DNA of 43,678 nt from a virus (Duplodnaviria; Heunggongvirae; Uroviricota; Caudoviricetes). Shown here in pieces: positions 1 to 6,000 of the stretch (position 1 is the stretch's first letter; each line of letters opens with the position of its first letter). Made by a program: the position numbers. The stretch lies in IMG/VR virus record IMGVR_UViG_2531839668_000011, positions 1 to 43,678 of that record, one strand, 5' to 3'.

Positions 1-3000
1 TATCGCGTCCTCAACAATGAATTTTGTGATGCGGTGCCTGGTGCCTCCAGGTGACGTTAACCAGTTAACAATTAACGCCGGATACAGAGAATCCACCCAT
101 AACACTGTTTTTGGTTTTAACTGTTCCGCGTGCGCTCAGCCGCATTCACCACATCACAAAATTCACTTTAAAAAGGGCGGCAGAGCAGTCACGGAGTAAA
201 ACTGATACCGCCAAACGTCACCAGAAAATTGATAACAGAGGGCGTTGCAGCGGGGTTGTCACTTAAGCGTATGGTCAACCTGACAACCCGGTGTCCTCAA
301 CGGGGGAAGGAATAACCCCGCCATACTTACCGCCGCGCCATTTCGCGGATTGCCACAACCGGAAGCGCACGGTCGACGAAAATTTAACGACAGGCTATCT
401 ATGAACCAGCTACCTCGCCGTGCGCTTTCGCGTTATGGTCTGACTTTTCAGGGAAATATCCTTTCAGTAAACTGTCAATGCCGGATGCTCACCCGTGTCC
501 GGCGCACGCACTCCACCTCACCCGTGGAGAACTCCTTAATTACTAACCTTAGCTTTGTTGATTAGCTACTAACGCGGGTATGTAATCATTCTGGCAATGC
601 TTAATGCCGCTGCTTTTTCCAGATTGGTGATATCCTGCTCCAGAGCGGACAGATTTTCAGCCTGCTTAGCCCTGGCTTCATTGGCCCATTTCAAATCCTG
701 CGCTGCATTAATTTTCTGGCGCATCCACTCATAAAGTTCATCATCGGTATAGTCTGGCGCGATGATGACGGGTTCTCGTTTCTGCATACTGATTCCTCGC
801 GGTGCTGTTTCGCTTATCAGCCGTTAGATTTTGCCGAACTGGAAAGCGCCTGTTTAAATTCGTTGAAGCCGAGAGCTTCTTCGCCGTCGGCAAGACCTTC
901 GAAGTATTCTTCGTAAGCCTTTTCCATGATTGTGTCGAAATCCATATCACTCACCTGAGTTTCTTTCCAGCCAGCGACGGGCACCATTTTCGGTTTTAAA
1001 CGTTTTGCTTTTGGTATACGTCATCGCGGTGAATGTGCCGTCCTGGTTGGGAAACACGCCGTACACCAGAGATTCGTTGTTGCCAAGACCGATAGTATCC
1101 ATGTTGACCTCATTTCCCCTTAACGCCGGGGTAGCGGAACAAAAACCTGCTGCATAGTTATTAAAGTTGAACCCTGCCGTCATGTTCTTACGCCTCGGGC
1201 TGGCTACTTAACCCCTGACCACTGCCTGGTAACTCGAAGTATTGCCCTGCGTTCTGCGGGACGGGGTGGGTTGGTATGAAAGGAAGGATACCCATGGGTA
1301 TTTAAAAAGTAAATACCCATGGGTAATTTTTTTGATGTGTCTTAACTGGTGACTGGTTGTTTGGTGAGTTATGATGCGTTTTGTGCTTTCTTTTTACGGA
1401 TTTCTTCGTAGATCATATTGTAATACTGTTTTTTCTCTTCAAGAGTTTTTAATAAGTTATCCGCTTCACTTTCTGGCAGTTCGTCTAAGAGATCTAAAAA
1501 AATACGTTGTCGTGGCGTTAGAACCCTTGTTTCATAATTGGAGGCTGTGTTCGTTGATGATGAAACGATACCATCCATCCATCCCCGGGGTAACCCAAAG
1601 GACTCTTCTATAATCTCCACCATATCATCAGCGATCCGTTTTTTCCTTTTTCCCCTCTGGGTACAACATTCTTGATACATAAGAAGGCTCGCGACCGATC
1701 TTTCTGGCCACGTTAACCGCTTTACCATCGCATTTCTCATCACGAATTTTGATGAGTTGTTGTCGTCTAAATTCATATTTGTCCATAGGTAAATAATAGA
1801 TGCGATTACCGCAAGGTAAACAACCTAGGGGTATTGACTTTTGTTTACCTGTGGGTATTCTTTGCTGTGTTTACTAAGGAGTAGCTATGGAAGAATTAAG
1901 AATATTTCTCAATTCTCTTTCGTCAGATGAACAGCGTATGTTTGCATGTGAGTGTGGTACTAGCATCGGTTATCTAAGAAAGGCATTGAGTAAAGGTCAA
2001 ATCTTAGGGGCATCGTTATGTGTCCTTATTGAGCGAGCCAGTAATGGTGAAGTTACACGTCAGCAACTAAGGCCTTTTGATTGGATGAATATTTGGCCCG
2101 AGCTGGAAGATACCAAAACGTTAACACAACCACTTACTAGGAGCTTGATTCATGAAAATCAAGCATGAACACATCCGCATGGCGATGAATGCCTGGGCGC
2201 GTCCTGATGGCGAAAAAGTTCCAGCAGCTGGAATAACCCAGGCTTATTTTGAGTTGGGTATGACGTTTCCTGAACTGTATGACGACAGCCATCCGGAAGC
2301 CCTGGCTCGCAATACCCAGAAAATTTTCCGCTGGGTAGAGAAAGACACCCCTGATGCAGTTGAAAAAATTCAGGCGTTGTTACCAGCGATCGAAAAGGCA
2401 ATGCCACCTTTGCTGGTGGCCAGAATGCGCAGCCACAGTTCAGCTTATTTTCGGGAGCTGGTGGAGACGCGGGAGCGATTGGTGAGAGACGCTGATGATT
2501 TTGTCGCAGTGGCAATCGCCGGTTTCAATCAGATGAACCGTGGTGGCCCGGCAGGAAATGCTGTGGCAGTACATTGACTGACAATAGCCATATCGAATCG
2601 CTTCCGGCAACTCGTGAGTAAAAAGATTCGGTATCAGAAGAGGTGAGTATGGCTAACGCTTGGCTCAGATTATGGCATGACATGCCAAATGACCCTAAGT
2701 GGCGAACAATTGCCAGGGTGTCAGGGCAGCCAATTGCAACAGTGATGGCAGTGTATATCCACCTCCTGGTGAGCGCGTCACGAAATGTCACGCGAGGTCA
2801 CATTGATGTCACGACAGAAGATTTGGCAAGTGCGCTCGACGTGACAGAAGAGGTAATTGATTCAATTTTGCAGACGATGCAGGGGCGGGTACTTGATGGT
2901 GATTTAATCACTGGATGGGAAAAACGCCAGGTGCTTAAAGAGGACAACGGCAATATTTCGCAAACCGCAAAATCTCCTGCAGAGCGCAAGAGGGCGCAGC

Positions 3001-6000
3001 GAGAGAGGGAAAGAAAGCGGGAACAAAATGGCGATTGTCACGGCGCGTCACGAAATGTCACGCACATGTCACGACGAGTAACGACAGATAAAGATACAGA
3101 TAAAGATACAGATCAAGAAGATCAAAACACTATGGTCCATGGCGTAAAAAACGCCACGAACCAGGCAGGGGATGTTCAGACCGTCAATCTTGGTCAGCCA
3201 GCAGGCACGACATCGGAAGCCGATTCAGCGTATGCGCTGAAAGCCGATTCGGGCGCTGTGCAGCAGGTGATGACCGCAAGGCCGGAGCAATCACACCAAC
3301 TGCAGCAGCCTGAAGCCGATTCCGCCATTCTGCGGGAAGCCGATCGGGTAGTCCCGGAAAACACCGGGCAGTCTGTGGGACGAGTGGATTATCCGGATGT
3401 GTTCGAACAGGTCTGGCGGGAGTACCCGTTGCGTGCCGGAGCAAACCCGAAGAAATCCGCTTTCAGTGCCTGGAAGGCCAGATTACGCGAGGGGGTGCCA
3501 CCAGAGGCCATGCTGGATGGCGTGAGGCGTTACGCAAGATACTTGGCGGCTACCGGGAAAACGGGAACGGAATTTGTTCAGCGAGCGACGACGTTTTTAG
3601 GACCGGACCGGAATTTTGAGAACCCCTGGTTGCTCCCGGTAAGCGGTACGAACAACCAGCGTTGCGTGAATCACATTTCTGAACCAGATACCGAAATTCC
3701 ACTGGGCTTCAGGGGGTAAGTGTTGATTTCTGGTCATGAGGTAATTTTCAGGAGGACTTGTGGCAAAAGTTTTTACACAAGAAGAGCGAGAAAAAATTAA
3801 AGGGCAGGTTGTTGAACTCGTACGCCAGAGTGGGCGTGAGACGTTACGGCAACTGGAAGTCAAGACAGGTGCGACAAGATATCTGATGAGCGTTCTCGCA
3901 AGAGAGCTGGTTGCCAGCGGCGATGTATACAACTCTGGTTACGGGTTGTTCCCGTCTGAACAGGCGCGTAAGGACTGGCAAAACGCCCGCAAAAAACTCT
4001 CAAGGGCAAATCTGAAGAAACCATCTGTGGTTGATCCTGACCTTATCTGGTCATTACCAGACGGAGAAATACGCCGCTACGACAGGCGTCAAAACATAAT
4101 CTGTAGCGAGTGCCGGAAGAGCGAAGCTATGCAGCGTGTACTGGCTTTCTATCAGGGTAATTTTCAGAAGGTGCTGTTGTGAGCCAAATTAACAATCGGA
4201 ACTTCGTGAAGAGAAAGCATAATCCAAATCTGAATAATTAAGTTCAGCACTGTAAATAAAATTTAATCCTTAACTGGAGGTATATCTATGTCAAATACAC
4301 AGAAAATTATTAACACTGAAAAATATAACGAGTGGGTGAAAAATTCTCTGAGCAGATTTTTAAAATTACTGGCGACGAGAATGTGGCAAAAAATGAATTA
4401 GAACCGTGGACACCTGAAGGAAACGCACCAAATTATTGCTGGTGGGAGGTTGATCCGGTTGATGCTGCAAATGAAGCCATGAGTTACCACAACGATTAAT
4501 GTCGGGAGGCCGCCCGAAAGGGCGGTAAGAAATGACTACATTATTCAGAAAAGAATATCCGCAAAAAAGTAGGGCGACAGAATTTTTGTTTCTCATTCTG
4601 TTTATCGTATTGATGATACCGATATCCCCTCTAATTTTTGTCTGGGCAATCGGGAAAATAATTGAGCCAGTTACTGAATTGTATACCGACGTTGTATGGG
4701 CGTCGTTCAACACACTGCACAATAAAATTAATCCGTATAAGGAAAACTGATATGGCAACTTTGACAAAAAAAGAACGGGCATGGTTGAACGAATTACAGG
4801 AAGTTCTTGATCGCTGTCCATCACCGAAAAAAATTGGCTTTTACACCATTGGCGATAAAAGCATTTACCTGTATGACCTACGCCGCATGGATGAAATCAT
4901 GGAGGCTCTTGATAATCGTTCGTCGATGGATTGGTGTGTTGCTGTTCATGATATGAATGCAGGGTTTGATGAAAAGATTTTGTTCCCCTCATCAGTTGAA
5001 AGCACTGCGGGTTAAGGAGTAACACATGACCACTATTACCAAAGAACGTATTGAATTGTTCATTAAAAATCCGCTTGAAAACGGGCTTACCCGTGGTGAA
5101 CAAATGGAACTGGCACGGATTGCGCTGGCATCGCTGGAAGCAGAGCCGGTGGCAAAGATTATAGCTCATTACCCATTAGGAGTTGACGTAGGCAAACAAA
5201 AGTTCGTACAGGCCATTGGAGAGCTTCCTGACTTTGGCGGATATCTATTTGCCGCCCCTCCAGCGCCGATAGTGCCGGAAGAAATGTATTGGCAGGATGC
5301 GCCAGTTGAAGGCAGCAGCAAAGCGGCTGCATACGCTACAGGCTGGAACGATTGCCGCGAAGCCATGCTTCAGTCCGGAAACTTTCGGGAAAATAAAGAT
5401 TCGTCAACCAATAATTTTCGGAAAATCCCGGAAGCGTCAACCAGCTCTCCGGTAACTCCGGCTCTTCTGCCTGGTGGTTTCACCATTGAGGATGCGAAGG
5501 ATTTACATGAAGACCTGGTGCGCAGCCACATAAGCCAGGCTTTAAGTAGCGAAAAGATGAAAAAGAAAGATCGCGATGCTGATTTGCGTTGGATCCATGG
5601 CGTTATAGTTCAGGCAGCGTGGTTTGTGAAAGCATCACTGGAAGCGTTGCCTGAACTGTCGCAGGAGGTGAATCAATGACCTGGCCTGAGGCATTCACAA
5701 CGGTAGGAATTGCGATGGCGGTGACGCTGGTGGTGTATTCGATTTGCCGCTGGGGATAAAAACGGTTTGCGGGAAAAGGAGAGTTAAGTAGAATTGCTGC
5801 GGGTGCTTGAGGCTATCTGTCTCAGGCATGAACACCAAAAGGCAGATAGAGAAAAGCCCCAGTTAACATTACGCGTCCGGCAAGACGCTTAACATTAATC
5901 TGAGGCCATATCTATGCTCTACACACGTAGGTTAGCCTCTTACGTGCCGAAAGGCAAGGAGAAGCAGGCTATGAAGCAGCAAAAGGCGATGCTTATCGCC

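What the first reader, a model, noticed from the sequence alone, without database searches (positions are those of the whole stretch)
2777..3072. Different intragenic iteron origins in the two replication genes
Prophage 1 has two clusters of four helically phased GTCAC repeats plus an AT-rich tract inside its replication gene; prophage 2 has five GGT(C/T)AAAA(T/C)G repeats at 33807-33910. The replication proteins share only their C-terminal domain, consistent with distinct origin specificity and shared host-interaction domain.
Basis: partly seen in the sequence, partly recalled or inferred. Interest (0 to 1): 0.4.

Follow-up and report, generated by a model that had tools for sequence, protein, structure and literature searches.

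The report
Replication origins inside two prophage initiator genes
Each of the two prophages carries its likely DNA replication origin inside its own initiator gene: one is an ordinary lambda-style origin, and the other is a widespread two-cluster design that I found described nowhere.

Summary
The repeats are real, sit at the stated coordinates and are far beyond chance.

**Rep1 (2649-3719)**
- GTCAC boxes start at 2777/2787/2797/2808 and at 3037/3047/3057/3068, plus a degenerate fifth box (GTAAC, 3078).
- A 29% GC tandem tract (3084-3131) follows directly.
- The boxes are read in all three codon frames, so they are not peptide repeats.
- 47 homologous genes from Enterobacterales to Acidobacteria were analysed. 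31 have phased box chains at both positions, and 28 of those use the same box in both. The box type switches in both clusters together: GTCACG, GTAACG, GAACGC.
- Third-codon positions inside boxes are 91-100% conserved, against 30-65% elsewhere.

**Rep2 (33459-34424)**
- It has five to six dyad-symmetric 23-bp iterons (33779-33917) followed by an AT tract.
- Synonymous-site diversity falls 5-10 fold across them.
- Relatives carry co-varying dyads at the same place.
- Its C-domain is homologous to lambda O.

- The origin reading is well supported by comparison between genomes, but it is untested experimentally.
- The "shared C-terminal domain" claim is wrong. The two proteins share only a 21-residue tail that copies the C-terminus of host DnaT.
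- Rep2 is an ordinary lambda-type origin. Rep1 is a new variant whose closest characterised analogue is SPP1 oriL.

The parts
2649..3719 (+). Rep1 gene (356 aa), the replication initiator of prophage 1, named 'phage replisome organizer' by NCBI
   Evidence: ORF. PHROG 3729 'replication initiation protein', E 4.7e-255. No Pfam family. 97-98% identical to genes in phages Tritos, Evi and vB_EcoS-689R5.
2777..2812 (+). Rep1 box cluster 1: four GTCAC(G) boxes spaced 10, 10, 11 nt, lying inside the N-terminal domain coding region (aa 43-55)
   Evidence: Read in frames 2, 0, 1, 0. Box third-codon positions are 0.91-1.00 conserved in 23 genera-spanning homologues. The position coincides with an indel-prone loop and a pLDDT dip.
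2841..2845 (-). Single inverted GTCAC box 29 nt after cluster 1
   Evidence: An inverted box recurs at the same offset (nt 180 or 192 of the gene) in ten GTCACG-type homologues, and L025 has GTTAC there. It also encodes the conserved LDVT peptide, so a role as a DNA site is uncertain.
3037..3082 (+). Rep1 box cluster 2: four GTCACG boxes plus a fifth degenerate GTAACG, spaced 10, 10, 11, 10 nt, in the linker-coding region (aa 130-145)
   Evidence: The fifth box is GTCAC in 46 of 50 close relatives. Present in essentially all homologues, including two that lack cluster 1. The protein region is predicted disordered.
3084..3131 (+). AT-rich, purine-skewed tandem tract (3 x ACAGATAAAGAT, then GATC sites at 3111 and 3120); the proposed DNA unwinding element
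   Evidence: GC 0.29 against 0.54 for the gene. Copy number is 3, 4 or 5 among close relatives. An equivalent (A)GATAAAGAT or CAGATA tract follows cluster 2 in homologues of every box type.
3657..3716 (+). Coding region for the DnaT-like C-terminal tail of Rep1 (QRCVNHISEPDTEIPLGFRG) and start of the mosaic block shared with prophage 2
   Evidence: Blastn block 3657-4161 = 34362-34866, 94% identical. The tail matches DnaT residues 159-179 and NF002770 positions 156-179.
33459..34424 (+). Rep2 gene (321 aa), the replication initiator of prophage 2, 'hypothetical protein' in NCBI records
   Evidence: ORF. PHROG 391 'replication initiation O-like', E 4.5e-95. No Pfam family. aa 147-294 are 35% identical to the lambda O C-domain, E 4e-28. 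93-95% identical to genes in phages mEp460_ev081, HannyBb and PhiR42_1.
33779..33917 (+). Rep2 iteron array: five 23-bp units with dyad-symmetric core CATCnGGTCAAAATGACnnGATG (33802-33917), plus a degenerate sixth unit (33779-33801)
   Evidence: Read in frames 1, 0, 2, 1, 1. Third-position diversity is 0.013-0.029 here against 0.13-0.26 in the flanks among 58 distinct relatives. Relatives carry GGGCAAnnTGCCC or GGGACAAnTTGTCCC dyads at the same place.
33919..33967 (+). Rep2 AT-rich tract (ACAGAGAATACA-type 12-nt repeats); the proposed DNA unwinding element
   Evidence: GC 0.31 against 0.49 for the gene. Nearly invariant among close relatives and conserved in Klebsiella and Pantoea phage homologues.
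34362..34421 (+). Coding region for the DnaT-like tail of Rep2 (QRCVNHISEPDTEIPPGFRG)

Best explanation
Both repeat arrays are the cis-acting binding sites (iterons) of theta-type phage replication origins, embedded in the gene of the initiator that recognises them.

**Rep2: a lambda-style origin.** The proposed steps are:
1. Dimers of the N-terminal domain bind five or six dyad-symmetric 23-bp iterons in the linker-coding region.
2. This distorts the DNA and melts the adjacent AT-rich tract.

**Rep1: a different design.**
1. Single 6-8 bp boxes (TGTCACG) repeat every 10-11 bp, so they lie on one face of the helix. They would be coated by N-terminal (probably helix-turn-helix) domains.
2. The core origin is cluster 2 plus the abutting purine-rich AT tandem tract.
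3. Cluster 1 lies 260 bp upstream, inside the sequence that encodes the DNA-binding domain itself. It is an accessory array that probably joins the same nucleoprotein complex by looping.

**Helicase recruitment.** Neither prophage encodes a helicase or a helicase loader. The initiators therefore presumably recruit the host DnaB/DnaC machinery themselves, perhaps through the DnaT-like C-terminal tail that both carry.

**Shown here:** the existence, phasing, DNA-level conservation and co-variation of the sites, and their placement beside an AT-rich tract in a linker-coding region.

**Inferred:** binding by the initiator, looping, melting and helicase recruitment.
For: **Not coding by-products.** The boxes and iterons occupy all three reading frames, and protein-preserving shuffles almost never reproduce them.

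**Selection acts on the DNA.**
- Among 23 GTCACG-type Rep1 homologues from different genera, third-codon positions inside boxes are 0.91-1.00 conserved. Non-box third positions of equally conserved codons are 0.30-0.65.
- In Rep2, third-position diversity drops 5-10 fold across codons 106-180. Non-synonymous changes there are not depleted.

**Family-wide architecture for Rep1.**
- 47 of 52 genome loci could be analysed. 31 have phased chains of at least 3 boxes at both positions, and 28 of these use the same 5-mer at both. A control region of the same genes reaches a chain of 3 in only 3 of 33.
- Box type switches in both clusters together: GTCACG in 24 loci, GTAACG in 6, GAACGC in 10, AACGCC in 1.
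- Boxes travel with the N-domain across different C-terminal architectures, including the PF17948 DnaT-domain forms.

**Rep2 relatives.** They keep five 23-bp units whose two dyad arms co-vary: GGTCAAA/TGACC, GGGCAA/TTGCCC, GGGACAA/TTGTCCC.

**Context.**
- AT-rich tracts abut the arrays and are conserved across box types.
- Cluster 2 and its tract fall in a region predicted disordered (aa 129-244), as the lambda iterons do in O.
- SPP1 oriL is experimentally proven (PMC5737612, PMC6316719). In my reading of the gene 38 sequence it has the same layout of roughly 11-bp-phased boxes followed by an AT tandem tract.
- Rep2's C-domain is homologous to lambda O.
- No P, DnaC or DnaB-like gene lies downstream of either rep gene.
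Against: - There is no experimental evidence for binding or origin firing in this or any member of either family. None of the 24 phage records carrying the Rep1 N-domain is a classical, well-studied model phage.
- The Rep1 N-domain has no significant structural or profile match to a known DNA-binding initiator domain. The AlphaFold model is of low confidence overall (pLDDT 54).
- Co-variation of box type with protein lineage is confounded by shared descent. Only about three independent switches are seen.
- Close relatives of Rep1 are too similar (98-99%) for a within-species synonymous-site test.
- The spacing between clusters varies from about 190 to 340 bp and is not obviously helically phased, which neither supports nor excludes looping.
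- No DnaA boxes lie in or beside either array, so any host-factor input is unknown.
Confidence: 0.8

Rival explanations
1. The arrays are initiator-binding sites, but some of them serve regulation rather than initiation. Cluster 1 of Rep1 is the main candidate. Possible roles are autorepression or a transcription roadblock inside the gene, titration or handcuffing for copy control, or a replication-fork barrier as proposed for G38P at SPP1 oriR.
For: - Cluster 1 is 260 bp from the AT tract and lies inside the coding region of a structured domain.
- Two homologues (L035, L051) have only cluster 2, so cluster 1 is dispensable for whatever the core does.
- SPP1 G38P binds a second, distant site, oriR, where it may stall forks (PMC3485210 abstract).
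Against: - Cluster 1 is kept in most of the family with the same phasing, and it always has the same box type as cluster 2. This fits one joint complex.
- Accessory initiator sites that enhance origin function are common.
- Nothing here separates enhancement from control.
Confidence: 0.12
2. The repeats are recognition sites for a different protein: a phage regulator such as the upstream CII/YdaT-like protein, a terminase small subunit (pac-like site), or a host factor. On this reading they are unrelated to replication initiation.
For: - Phage pac sites and operator arrays can also be short phased repeats inside genes. This rests on general knowledge and was not tested here.
- A YdaT/CII-like gene precedes both rep genes.
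Against: - Box type tracks the Rep N-domain lineage across hosts from Enterobacterales to Acidobacteria, and across different C-terminal partners.
- The arrays always lie in the rep gene next to an AT-rich tract, as in lambda and SPP1.
- Both prophages have YdaT-like upstream genes but entirely different repeats.
Confidence: 0.05
3. The repeats are non-functional. They would be by-products of repeated peptide motifs, or of slippage-prone low-complexity DNA tolerated in a disordered linker.
For: - Between the two Rep1 clusters the offset is 270 nt, which is in frame, and the peptide ASRNVT recurs.
- The 12-nt tract varies in copy number, and a Rep2 variant has lost four iterons. The repeats are therefore recombinogenic.
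Against: - Within each cluster the boxes are read in three different frames.
- Synonymous positions inside boxes are nearly invariant over large evolutionary distances, while neighbouring synonymous positions are saturated.
- Synonymous diversity collapses across the Rep2 array.
- Both clusters, and both dyad arms, switch sequence in concert.
Confidence: 0.02

Closest known systems
Bacteriophage lambda ori (four iterons plus an AT-rich region inside gene O)
   Same: - The origin is embedded in the linker-coding part of the initiator gene and lies in the rightward early operon after a cII-like gene.
- Rep2 has dyad-symmetric iterons of about 19-23 bp at 20-24 bp spacing, followed by a purine-rich AT tract.
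- Rep2's C-terminal domain is homologous to that of lambda O (35% identity, E 4e-28).
   Different: - Neither N-domain matches PF04492.
- No P gene follows either rep gene. A DnaT-like tail is appended instead.
- Rep2 has five or six iterons of a different sequence.
- Rep1 shares nothing with O at the sequence level. It uses 6-8 bp non-palindromic boxes at 10-11 bp spacing, arranged in two clusters.
Bacillus phage SPP1 oriL (AB boxes plus DUE inside gene 38, bound by the replisome organizer G38P)
   Same: - It is an experimentally proven intragenic origin (PMC5737612, PMC6316719).
- In my reading of the gene 38 sequence it consists of short boxes, (G)AAACGACAC / AAAAGACAC, repeated about every 11 bp. 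A tandem AT-rich tract follows directly, between the N- and C-terminal domain coding regions.
- This is the same layout as Rep1 cluster 2 plus its tract.
- NCBI names Rep1 'phage replisome organizer'.
   Different: - Homology is not demonstrable: TIGR01714 scores 15.4 bits against a cut-off of 49.8, PF09681 is hit weakly by 1 of 28 family members, and hhalign probability is 0.2%.
- I saw no obvious matching boxes in the N-domain coding part of SPP1 gene 38.
- SPP1's second site, oriR, is about 13 kb away.
- SPP1 encodes its own loader and helicase, G39P and G40P. These prophages do not.
Iteron-type plasmid and phage-plasmid origins (for example P1 oriR, RK2, pSC101)
   Same: Direct repeats bound by a cognate initiator lie next to an AT-rich unwinding element. 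Repeat sequence and initiator specificity evolve together (general knowledge; PMC4980987).
   Different: Those iterons are typically about 17-22 bp, intergenic and accompanied by DnaA boxes. Here the sites are intragenic, no DnaA box lies in or beside either array, and the Rep1 boxes are much shorter and spaced one helical turn apart.

Membership tests
Iteron-type theta origin embedded in its initiator gene (lambda ori / SPP1 oriL class) | Three or more direct repeats of one short sequence at regular spacing | tested here: met
   Rep1 has 4 + 5 boxes at 10-11 bp spacing. Rep2 has 5-6 units at 23-24 bp spacing.
Iteron-type theta origin embedded in its initiator gene (lambda ori / SPP1 oriL class) | AT-rich unwinding element directly beside the repeats | tested here: met
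   3084-3131 has GC 0.29 and 33919-67 has GC 0.31, each starting 1-2 nt after the last repeat. Actual unwinding was not tested.
Iteron-type theta origin embedded in its initiator gene (lambda ori / SPP1 oriL class) | Repeats constrained as DNA, independently of the protein they encode | tested here: met
   The repeats occupy three reading frames and survive protein-preserving shuffles almost never. Synonymous sites are conserved.
Iteron-type theta origin embedded in its initiator gene (lambda ori / SPP1 oriL class) | Repeat sequence co-varies with the initiator's DNA-binding domain lineage | tested here: met
   Rep1 shows GTCACG, GTAACG and GAACGC types, each present in both clusters. Rep2 shows three dyad types. 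The result is confounded by shared descent.
Iteron-type theta origin embedded in its initiator gene (lambda ori / SPP1 oriL class) | Specific binding of the initiator to the repeats | not testable with these tools
   Needs EMSA or footprinting.
Iteron-type theta origin embedded in its initiator gene (lambda ori / SPP1 oriL class) | The fragment supports initiator-dependent replication | not testable with these tools
   Needs a cloned-origin assay or initiation-site mapping.
Lambda O/P replication module | N-terminal domain of family PF04492 (Phage_rep_O) | tested here: not met
   Lambda O scores E 5.7e-36. Rep1 and Rep2 have no hit.
Lambda O/P replication module | C-terminal domain homologous to the lambda O C-domain | tested here: inconclusive
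   Met for Rep2 (35% identity over 148 aa, E 4e-28). Not met for Rep1 (best E 0.074).
Lambda O/P replication module | Dyad-symmetric iterons of about 19 bp | tested here: inconclusive
   Met for Rep2 (8 of 11 symmetric positions in the best units; perfect dyads in relatives). Not met for Rep1, whose boxes are asymmetric 6-8-mers.
Lambda O/P replication module | P-type helicase loader gene immediately downstream | tested here: not met
   The next gene is DUF977 / Ren-like. No P, DnaC or DnaB family hit was found in the early-right ORFs.
SPP1 G38P-type replisome organizer (PF09681 / TIGR01714) | N-terminal domain matches the family model above its cut-off | tested here: not met
   TIGR01714 scores 15.4 bits against a cut-off of 49.8. 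PF09681 is hit by 1 of 28 members at E 0.0047. hhalign against G38P gives probability 0.2%.
SPP1 G38P-type replisome organizer (PF09681 / TIGR01714) | Short boxes at about one helical turn, followed by an AT tandem tract in the inter-domain region of the gene | tested here: met
   Compare (SPP1) (Rep1 cluster 2). The SPP1 box reading is my own, taken from the sequence.
SPP1 G38P-type replisome organizer (PF09681 / TIGR01714) | Dedicated loader and DnaB-type helicase genes downstream | tested here: not met
   SPP1 has genes 39 and 40. Neither prophage has equivalents.

The most novel reading that the evidence does not exclude
The Rep1 family, about 2,400 clusters at 50% identity from Enterobacterales to Acidobacteria, may use a previously undescribed bipartite origin.
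- One array of helically phased initiator boxes is written into the coding sequence of the initiator's own DNA-binding domain. There it dictates a variable surface loop (the VT / xH / SR peptides).
- A second array with the unwinding element lies in the linker-coding region.
- On this reading the two arrays are brought together by looping.

In addition, two otherwise unrelated initiators that lack any helicase loader both carry the last 21 residues of host DnaT. This tail may be the motif that recruits DnaB/DnaC. That would bear on the open question of how DnaT hands over the helicase, which is stated as unknown in PMC13377028.
Probability: 0.35. Interest if true: 0.6.

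Novelty: new variant of a known kind. Interest (0 to 1): 0.42.

Why it matters
**General principle.** Origins embedded in initiator genes are textbook (lambda, SPP1), so the principle is not new, and the Rep2 origin is an ordinary member of that class.

**What the Rep1 result adds.**
- It gives a sequence-level definition of the likely origin for a very large phage and prophage initiator family that has no Pfam model. About 5,800 sequences fall in the E. coli cluster alone, and about 2,400 clusters at 50% identity overall.
- It gives a clear specificity code (GTCACG, GTAACG, GAACGC) that could be used to predict replicon compatibility among co-resident prophages.
- It shows a DNA site shaping the protein sequence of the very domain presumed to bind it.

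**Practical uses.**
- The box-plus-tract signature would let annotators mark rep_origin features in thousands of prophages.
- Such a map could help explain which prophages in polylysogens such as EHEC can still replicate.

**Side observation.** The host-DnaT tail on loader-less initiators offers a concrete, testable handle on helicase recruitment.

Tried and rejected
1. **Pfam, NCBIfam and PDB searches for the Rep1 N-domain.** Nothing significant was found. There were only weak hits to TIGR01714/PF09681 and to HTH_Crp_2.
2. **AlphaFold2 model and Foldseek.** The model built from a 14-sequence alignment had mean pLDDT 54. Foldseek against the PDB gave no match below E 1, only a scatter of winged-helix and sigma-4 hits. 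"Helix-turn-helix" is therefore an inference, not a result.
3. **hhalign of the Rep1 family against SPP1 G38P.** No homology was detected.
4. **Within-species diversity scan for Rep1.** Relatives are 98-99% identical, so the scan was uninformative. It was replaced by the cross-genus codon analysis.
5. **Shared C-domain between Rep1 and Rep2.** Rejected.
6. **DnaA boxes.** Only 1-mismatch matches were found, and all lie outside the arrays.
7. **Second GTCAC cluster elsewhere in the window (an oriR-like site).** None was found. Other GTCAC copies are isolated or not phased.
8. **Literature.** Searches for GTCACG with origin and phage, replisome organizer with iterons and prophage, and lambdoid with DnaT found no description of these origins. 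The library covers open-access papers only, so absence is not proof.
9. **Helical phasing of the distance between clusters.** Distances of about 190-340 bp show no clear pattern. This was not pursued.

Full report
**What is in the sequence**

The finding concerns two genes.
- Rep1 is window 2649-3719 (+, 356 aa).
- Rep2 is 33459-34424 (+, 321 aa).

In both prophages the gene sits in the same place. It follows a divergent repressor, a Cro-like gene and a CII/YdaT-like gene, and it precedes a DUF977/Ren-like gene.

*Rep1.*
- GTCAC occurs on the + strand at 2777, 2787, 2797, 2808 and again at 3037, 3047, 3057, 3068. The spacing is 10, 10, 11 in both clusters, and the clusters start 260 nt apart.
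- The unit is really (A/G)(T/C)GTCACG(A/C).
- A fifth in-phase box in cluster 2 reads GTAAC in this copy (3078). It reads GTCAC in 46 of 50 distinct close relatives.
- An inverted copy lies at 2841-2845.
- Two nucleotides after the last box comes 3 x ACAGATAAAGAT and a further A-rich stretch (3084-3131). Its GC is 0.29 against 0.54 for the gene, and it has a strong purine skew and two GATC sites.

*Rep2.*
- It has five units with period 23, 23, 23, 24 (33802-33917) and a degenerate sixth (33779-33801).
- The dyad-symmetric core is CATCnGGTCAAAATGACnnGATG.
- A 31% GC tract follows at 33919-33967.

**Is it more than chance or coding?**

Window-wide, GTCAC is not enriched (73 found, 64 expected). 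The signal is the local clustering. I tested it with the protein held fixed:
- Eight GTCAC in the gene was reached in 1 of 5000 synonymous-codon permutations and in 0 of 5000 codon-usage resamplings.
- Seven GTCACG was reached in 0 of 5000 under both schemes.
- The five Rep2 cores were reached in 0 of 5000.

The boxes are read in all three frames. The Rep1 frames are 2, 0, 1, 0 and 1, 2, 0, 2, and the Rep2 frames are 1, 0, 2, 1, 1. The dependence runs the other way. GTCACG translates as V-T, x-H or S-R depending on frame, and exactly these dipeptides fill aa 43-55 (SASRNVTRGHIDVT) and aa 130-145 (CHGASRNVTHMSRRVT).

**Comparative evidence, Rep1**

*Size of the family.*
- The protein is common. 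One 90% cluster holds about 5,800 sequences, and NCBI names it "phage replisome organizer".
- Its N-terminal 165 aa find 2,410 clusters at 50% identity with E <= 1e-3.
- It has no Pfam model.

*Architecture across genomes.* A genome scan returned 52 loci from Enterobacterales, Pseudomonas, Bordetella, Chromobacterium, Acidovorax, Janthinobacterium, sphingomonads and Acidobacteria.
- In most of the 47 analysable loci the same architecture recurs. One phased box cluster lies at about nt 117-170 of the gene. A second lies at about nt 350-450 and is directly followed by an (A)GATAAAGAT, CAGATA or AGAAGAG purine tandem tract.
- 31 loci have chains of at least 3 phased boxes at both positions, and 28 of them use the same 5-mer at both. 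The three exceptions are register shifts of the same box or an inverted copy.
- A control segment of the same genes reaches a chain of 3 in only 3 of 33 cases.

*Box type.* The box type differs between lineages and always changes in both clusters together: GTCACG in 24 loci, GTAACG in 6, (C)GAACGC in 10 and AACGCC in 1. Two loci (L035, L051) have only cluster 2, with 7 and 5 boxes. Cluster 2 plus the tract is therefore the core, and cluster 1 is accessory.

*Synonymous sites.* In a codon alignment of 23 GTCACG-type genes, third positions that fall inside boxes are 0.91-1.00 conserved. Third positions of equally conserved codons elsewhere, and of non-box codons between boxes, are 0.30-0.65. This is selection on DNA, not on protein.

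*Other observations.*
- Protein alignments show indels exactly at the two clusters, adding or removing VT/CH/SR units.
- The boxes accompany the N-domain even when the C-terminal half is a different module (PF17948 DnaT domain).
- The 12-nt tract varies between 3, 4 and 5 copies among near-identical relatives.

**Comparative evidence, Rep2**

- Among 58 distinct sequences that are 92-100% identical, third-position nucleotide diversity is 0.013-0.029 across codons 106-180 (iterons plus AT tract). In the flanks it is 0.13-0.26. Non-synonymous polymorphism in that stretch is not depleted.
- Diverged homologues keep five 23-bp units at the same place. These come from Klebsiella phage ST147-VIM1phi7.2, Pantoea phage AH07 and 80 viral contigs.
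- Both dyad arms change together: GGTCAAA...TGACC, GGGCAA..TTGCCC, GGGACAA.TTGTCCC. The array is always followed by the ACAGAGAATACAACAGAGATTAC tract.
- One natural variant (P0136) has lost 31 aa, which equals four iterons.

**The proteins**

*Rep1 model.* The AlphaFold2 model has low overall confidence (pLDDT 54). It shows a helical N-domain (aa 1-80, pLDDT 60-85) with a confidence dip at aa 49-51, which lies in the cluster-1 loop. A disordered stretch at aa 129-244 contains cluster 2 and the AT tract. A helical C-domain follows at aa 245-305, and the tail is disordered. Foldseek and PDB profile searches gave nothing significant.

*Rep2.* Residues 147-294 are homologous to the lambda O C-domain (35% identity, E 4e-28). 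Its N-domain is not PF04492.

*Rep1 against Rep2.*
- The BLASTP hit (E 2e-10) is carried by the last 21 residues.
- Without those residues the best E-value is 0.69.
- hhalign aligns only the last 11 columns.

*The tail.* The sequence QRCVNHISEPDTEIP(L/P)GFRG matches the extreme C-terminus of host DnaT (PDB 9zbt_D residues 159-179; also 2ru8 and 6aep; NF002770 positions 156-179). At the DNA level the shared block starts at 3657/34362 and continues at 94% identity through the DUF977 gene. This is a classic mosaic junction.

**Mechanism proposed**

Shown here:
- Phased, DNA-constrained, lineage-specific sites.
- Their position next to an AT-rich tract.
- Their location in the initiator gene.

Inferred:
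- The N-domains bind the sites. Rep2 would bind as dimers on dyads, like lambda O. Rep1 would bind as units on one face of the helix at one-turn spacing.
- The nucleoprotein complex stresses and melts the adjacent tract.
- Rep1 cluster 1 joins the complex by looping about 230-260 bp.
- Host DnaB/DnaC is recruited by the initiator itself, because no P, DnaC or DnaB-like gene is present. The DnaT-like tail may do this.

Overall confidence that these are origin iterons is about 0.8. The role of cluster 1 and the role of the tail are much less certain.

**Comparison with what is known**

- Lambda ori has four dyad iterons plus an AT-rich region inside O. It is the model for Rep2, which I file as a new member of that kind: the same C-domain and origin layout, but a different N-domain and no P.
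- For Rep1 the closest characterised system is SPP1 oriL. This is a proven origin inside gene 38, made of AB boxes and a DUE (PMC5737612, PMC6316719). Reading that gene, I see (G)AAACGACAC/AAAAGACAC boxes about every 11 bp, followed by a 9-nt tandem AT tract. That matches the layout of Rep1 cluster 2.
- Membership of the G38P family is not demonstrated.
- The second box cluster inside the DNA-binding-domain coding region has no obvious counterpart in my reading of SPP1 gene 38.
- I found no paper describing these boxes. None of the 24 phage records carrying the Rep1 N-domain is a classical, well-studied model phage. The Tritos record, the one inspected, annotates no origin in this region.

**Verdict**

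The protein-domain statement is wrong in detail.
- The general phenomenon is textbook.
- The Rep2 origin is ordinary.
- The Rep1 two-cluster design, its family-wide specificity code and the DnaT-tail mimicry are modestly novel and experimentally tractable.

Interest is 0.42.

Noticed in passing
window 3657-3716 and 34362-34421: Both initiators are otherwise unrelated, yet both end in a 21-residue tail (QRCVNHISEPDTEIPxGFRG) that matches the extreme C-terminus of host DnaT (PDB 9zbt_D 159-179). Neither prophage encodes a helicase loader. IPxGFRG/S is kept in distant homologues whose C-termini otherwise differ. How DnaT recruits DnaB/DnaC is stated to be unknown (PMC13377028), so the tail is a candidate recruitment motif.
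   Followed up: partly
window 3657-4161 vs 34362-34866: A 94%-identical DNA block begins inside the rep genes (last 21 codons) and runs through the downstream DUF977/Ren-like gene. This is a mosaic recombination junction within a coding region.
   Followed up: partly
window 1-1140 vs 30984-32123: A 99%-identical block is shared by the two prophages. It includes a DicF sRNA gene in each (175-226 and 31158-31209, - strand).
   Followed up: no
window 5801-5976 and 38289-38463; 10221-10467; 10546-10735: There are two sok (hok/sok-type antitoxin RNA) matches, one per prophage and each within a shared 96% block (5782-6214 = 38270-38701). Prophage 1 also has a cluster of three tRNA genes followed by an STnc100 sRNA match.
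   Followed up: no
window 41322-42218: An ORF with a full-length match to the SseK/NleB family (E 3.9e-163). This suggests that the host is an attaching-and-effacing E. coli or a relative.
   Followed up: no
P0136 (Rep2 homologue); L206, L211, L215 (Rep1 homologues): There are natural length variants at the origins. One Rep2 allele lacks 31 aa, which equals four of the iterons. Rep1 alleles carry 3, 4 or 5 copies of the 12-nt AT-tract unit. Whether the iteron-deleted allele still replicates is unknown.
   Followed up: partly
H47-H49, H51 (Pseudomonas phages phita81A, 5399, 5371, Marin): In several Pseudomonas phage records the region homologous to the Rep1 N-domain lies under two separate 'hypothetical protein' annotations. 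This may reflect a split or mis-called gene at the box cluster.
   Followed up: no
window 2841-2845 (- strand); L025 nt ~213 of the gene: A single inverted box follows cluster 1 at a conserved offset. In the GTAACG-type homologue L025 the inverted copy reads GTTAC, so it appears to co-vary. The site also encodes the conserved LDVT peptide, which leaves the evidence ambiguous.
   Followed up: partly
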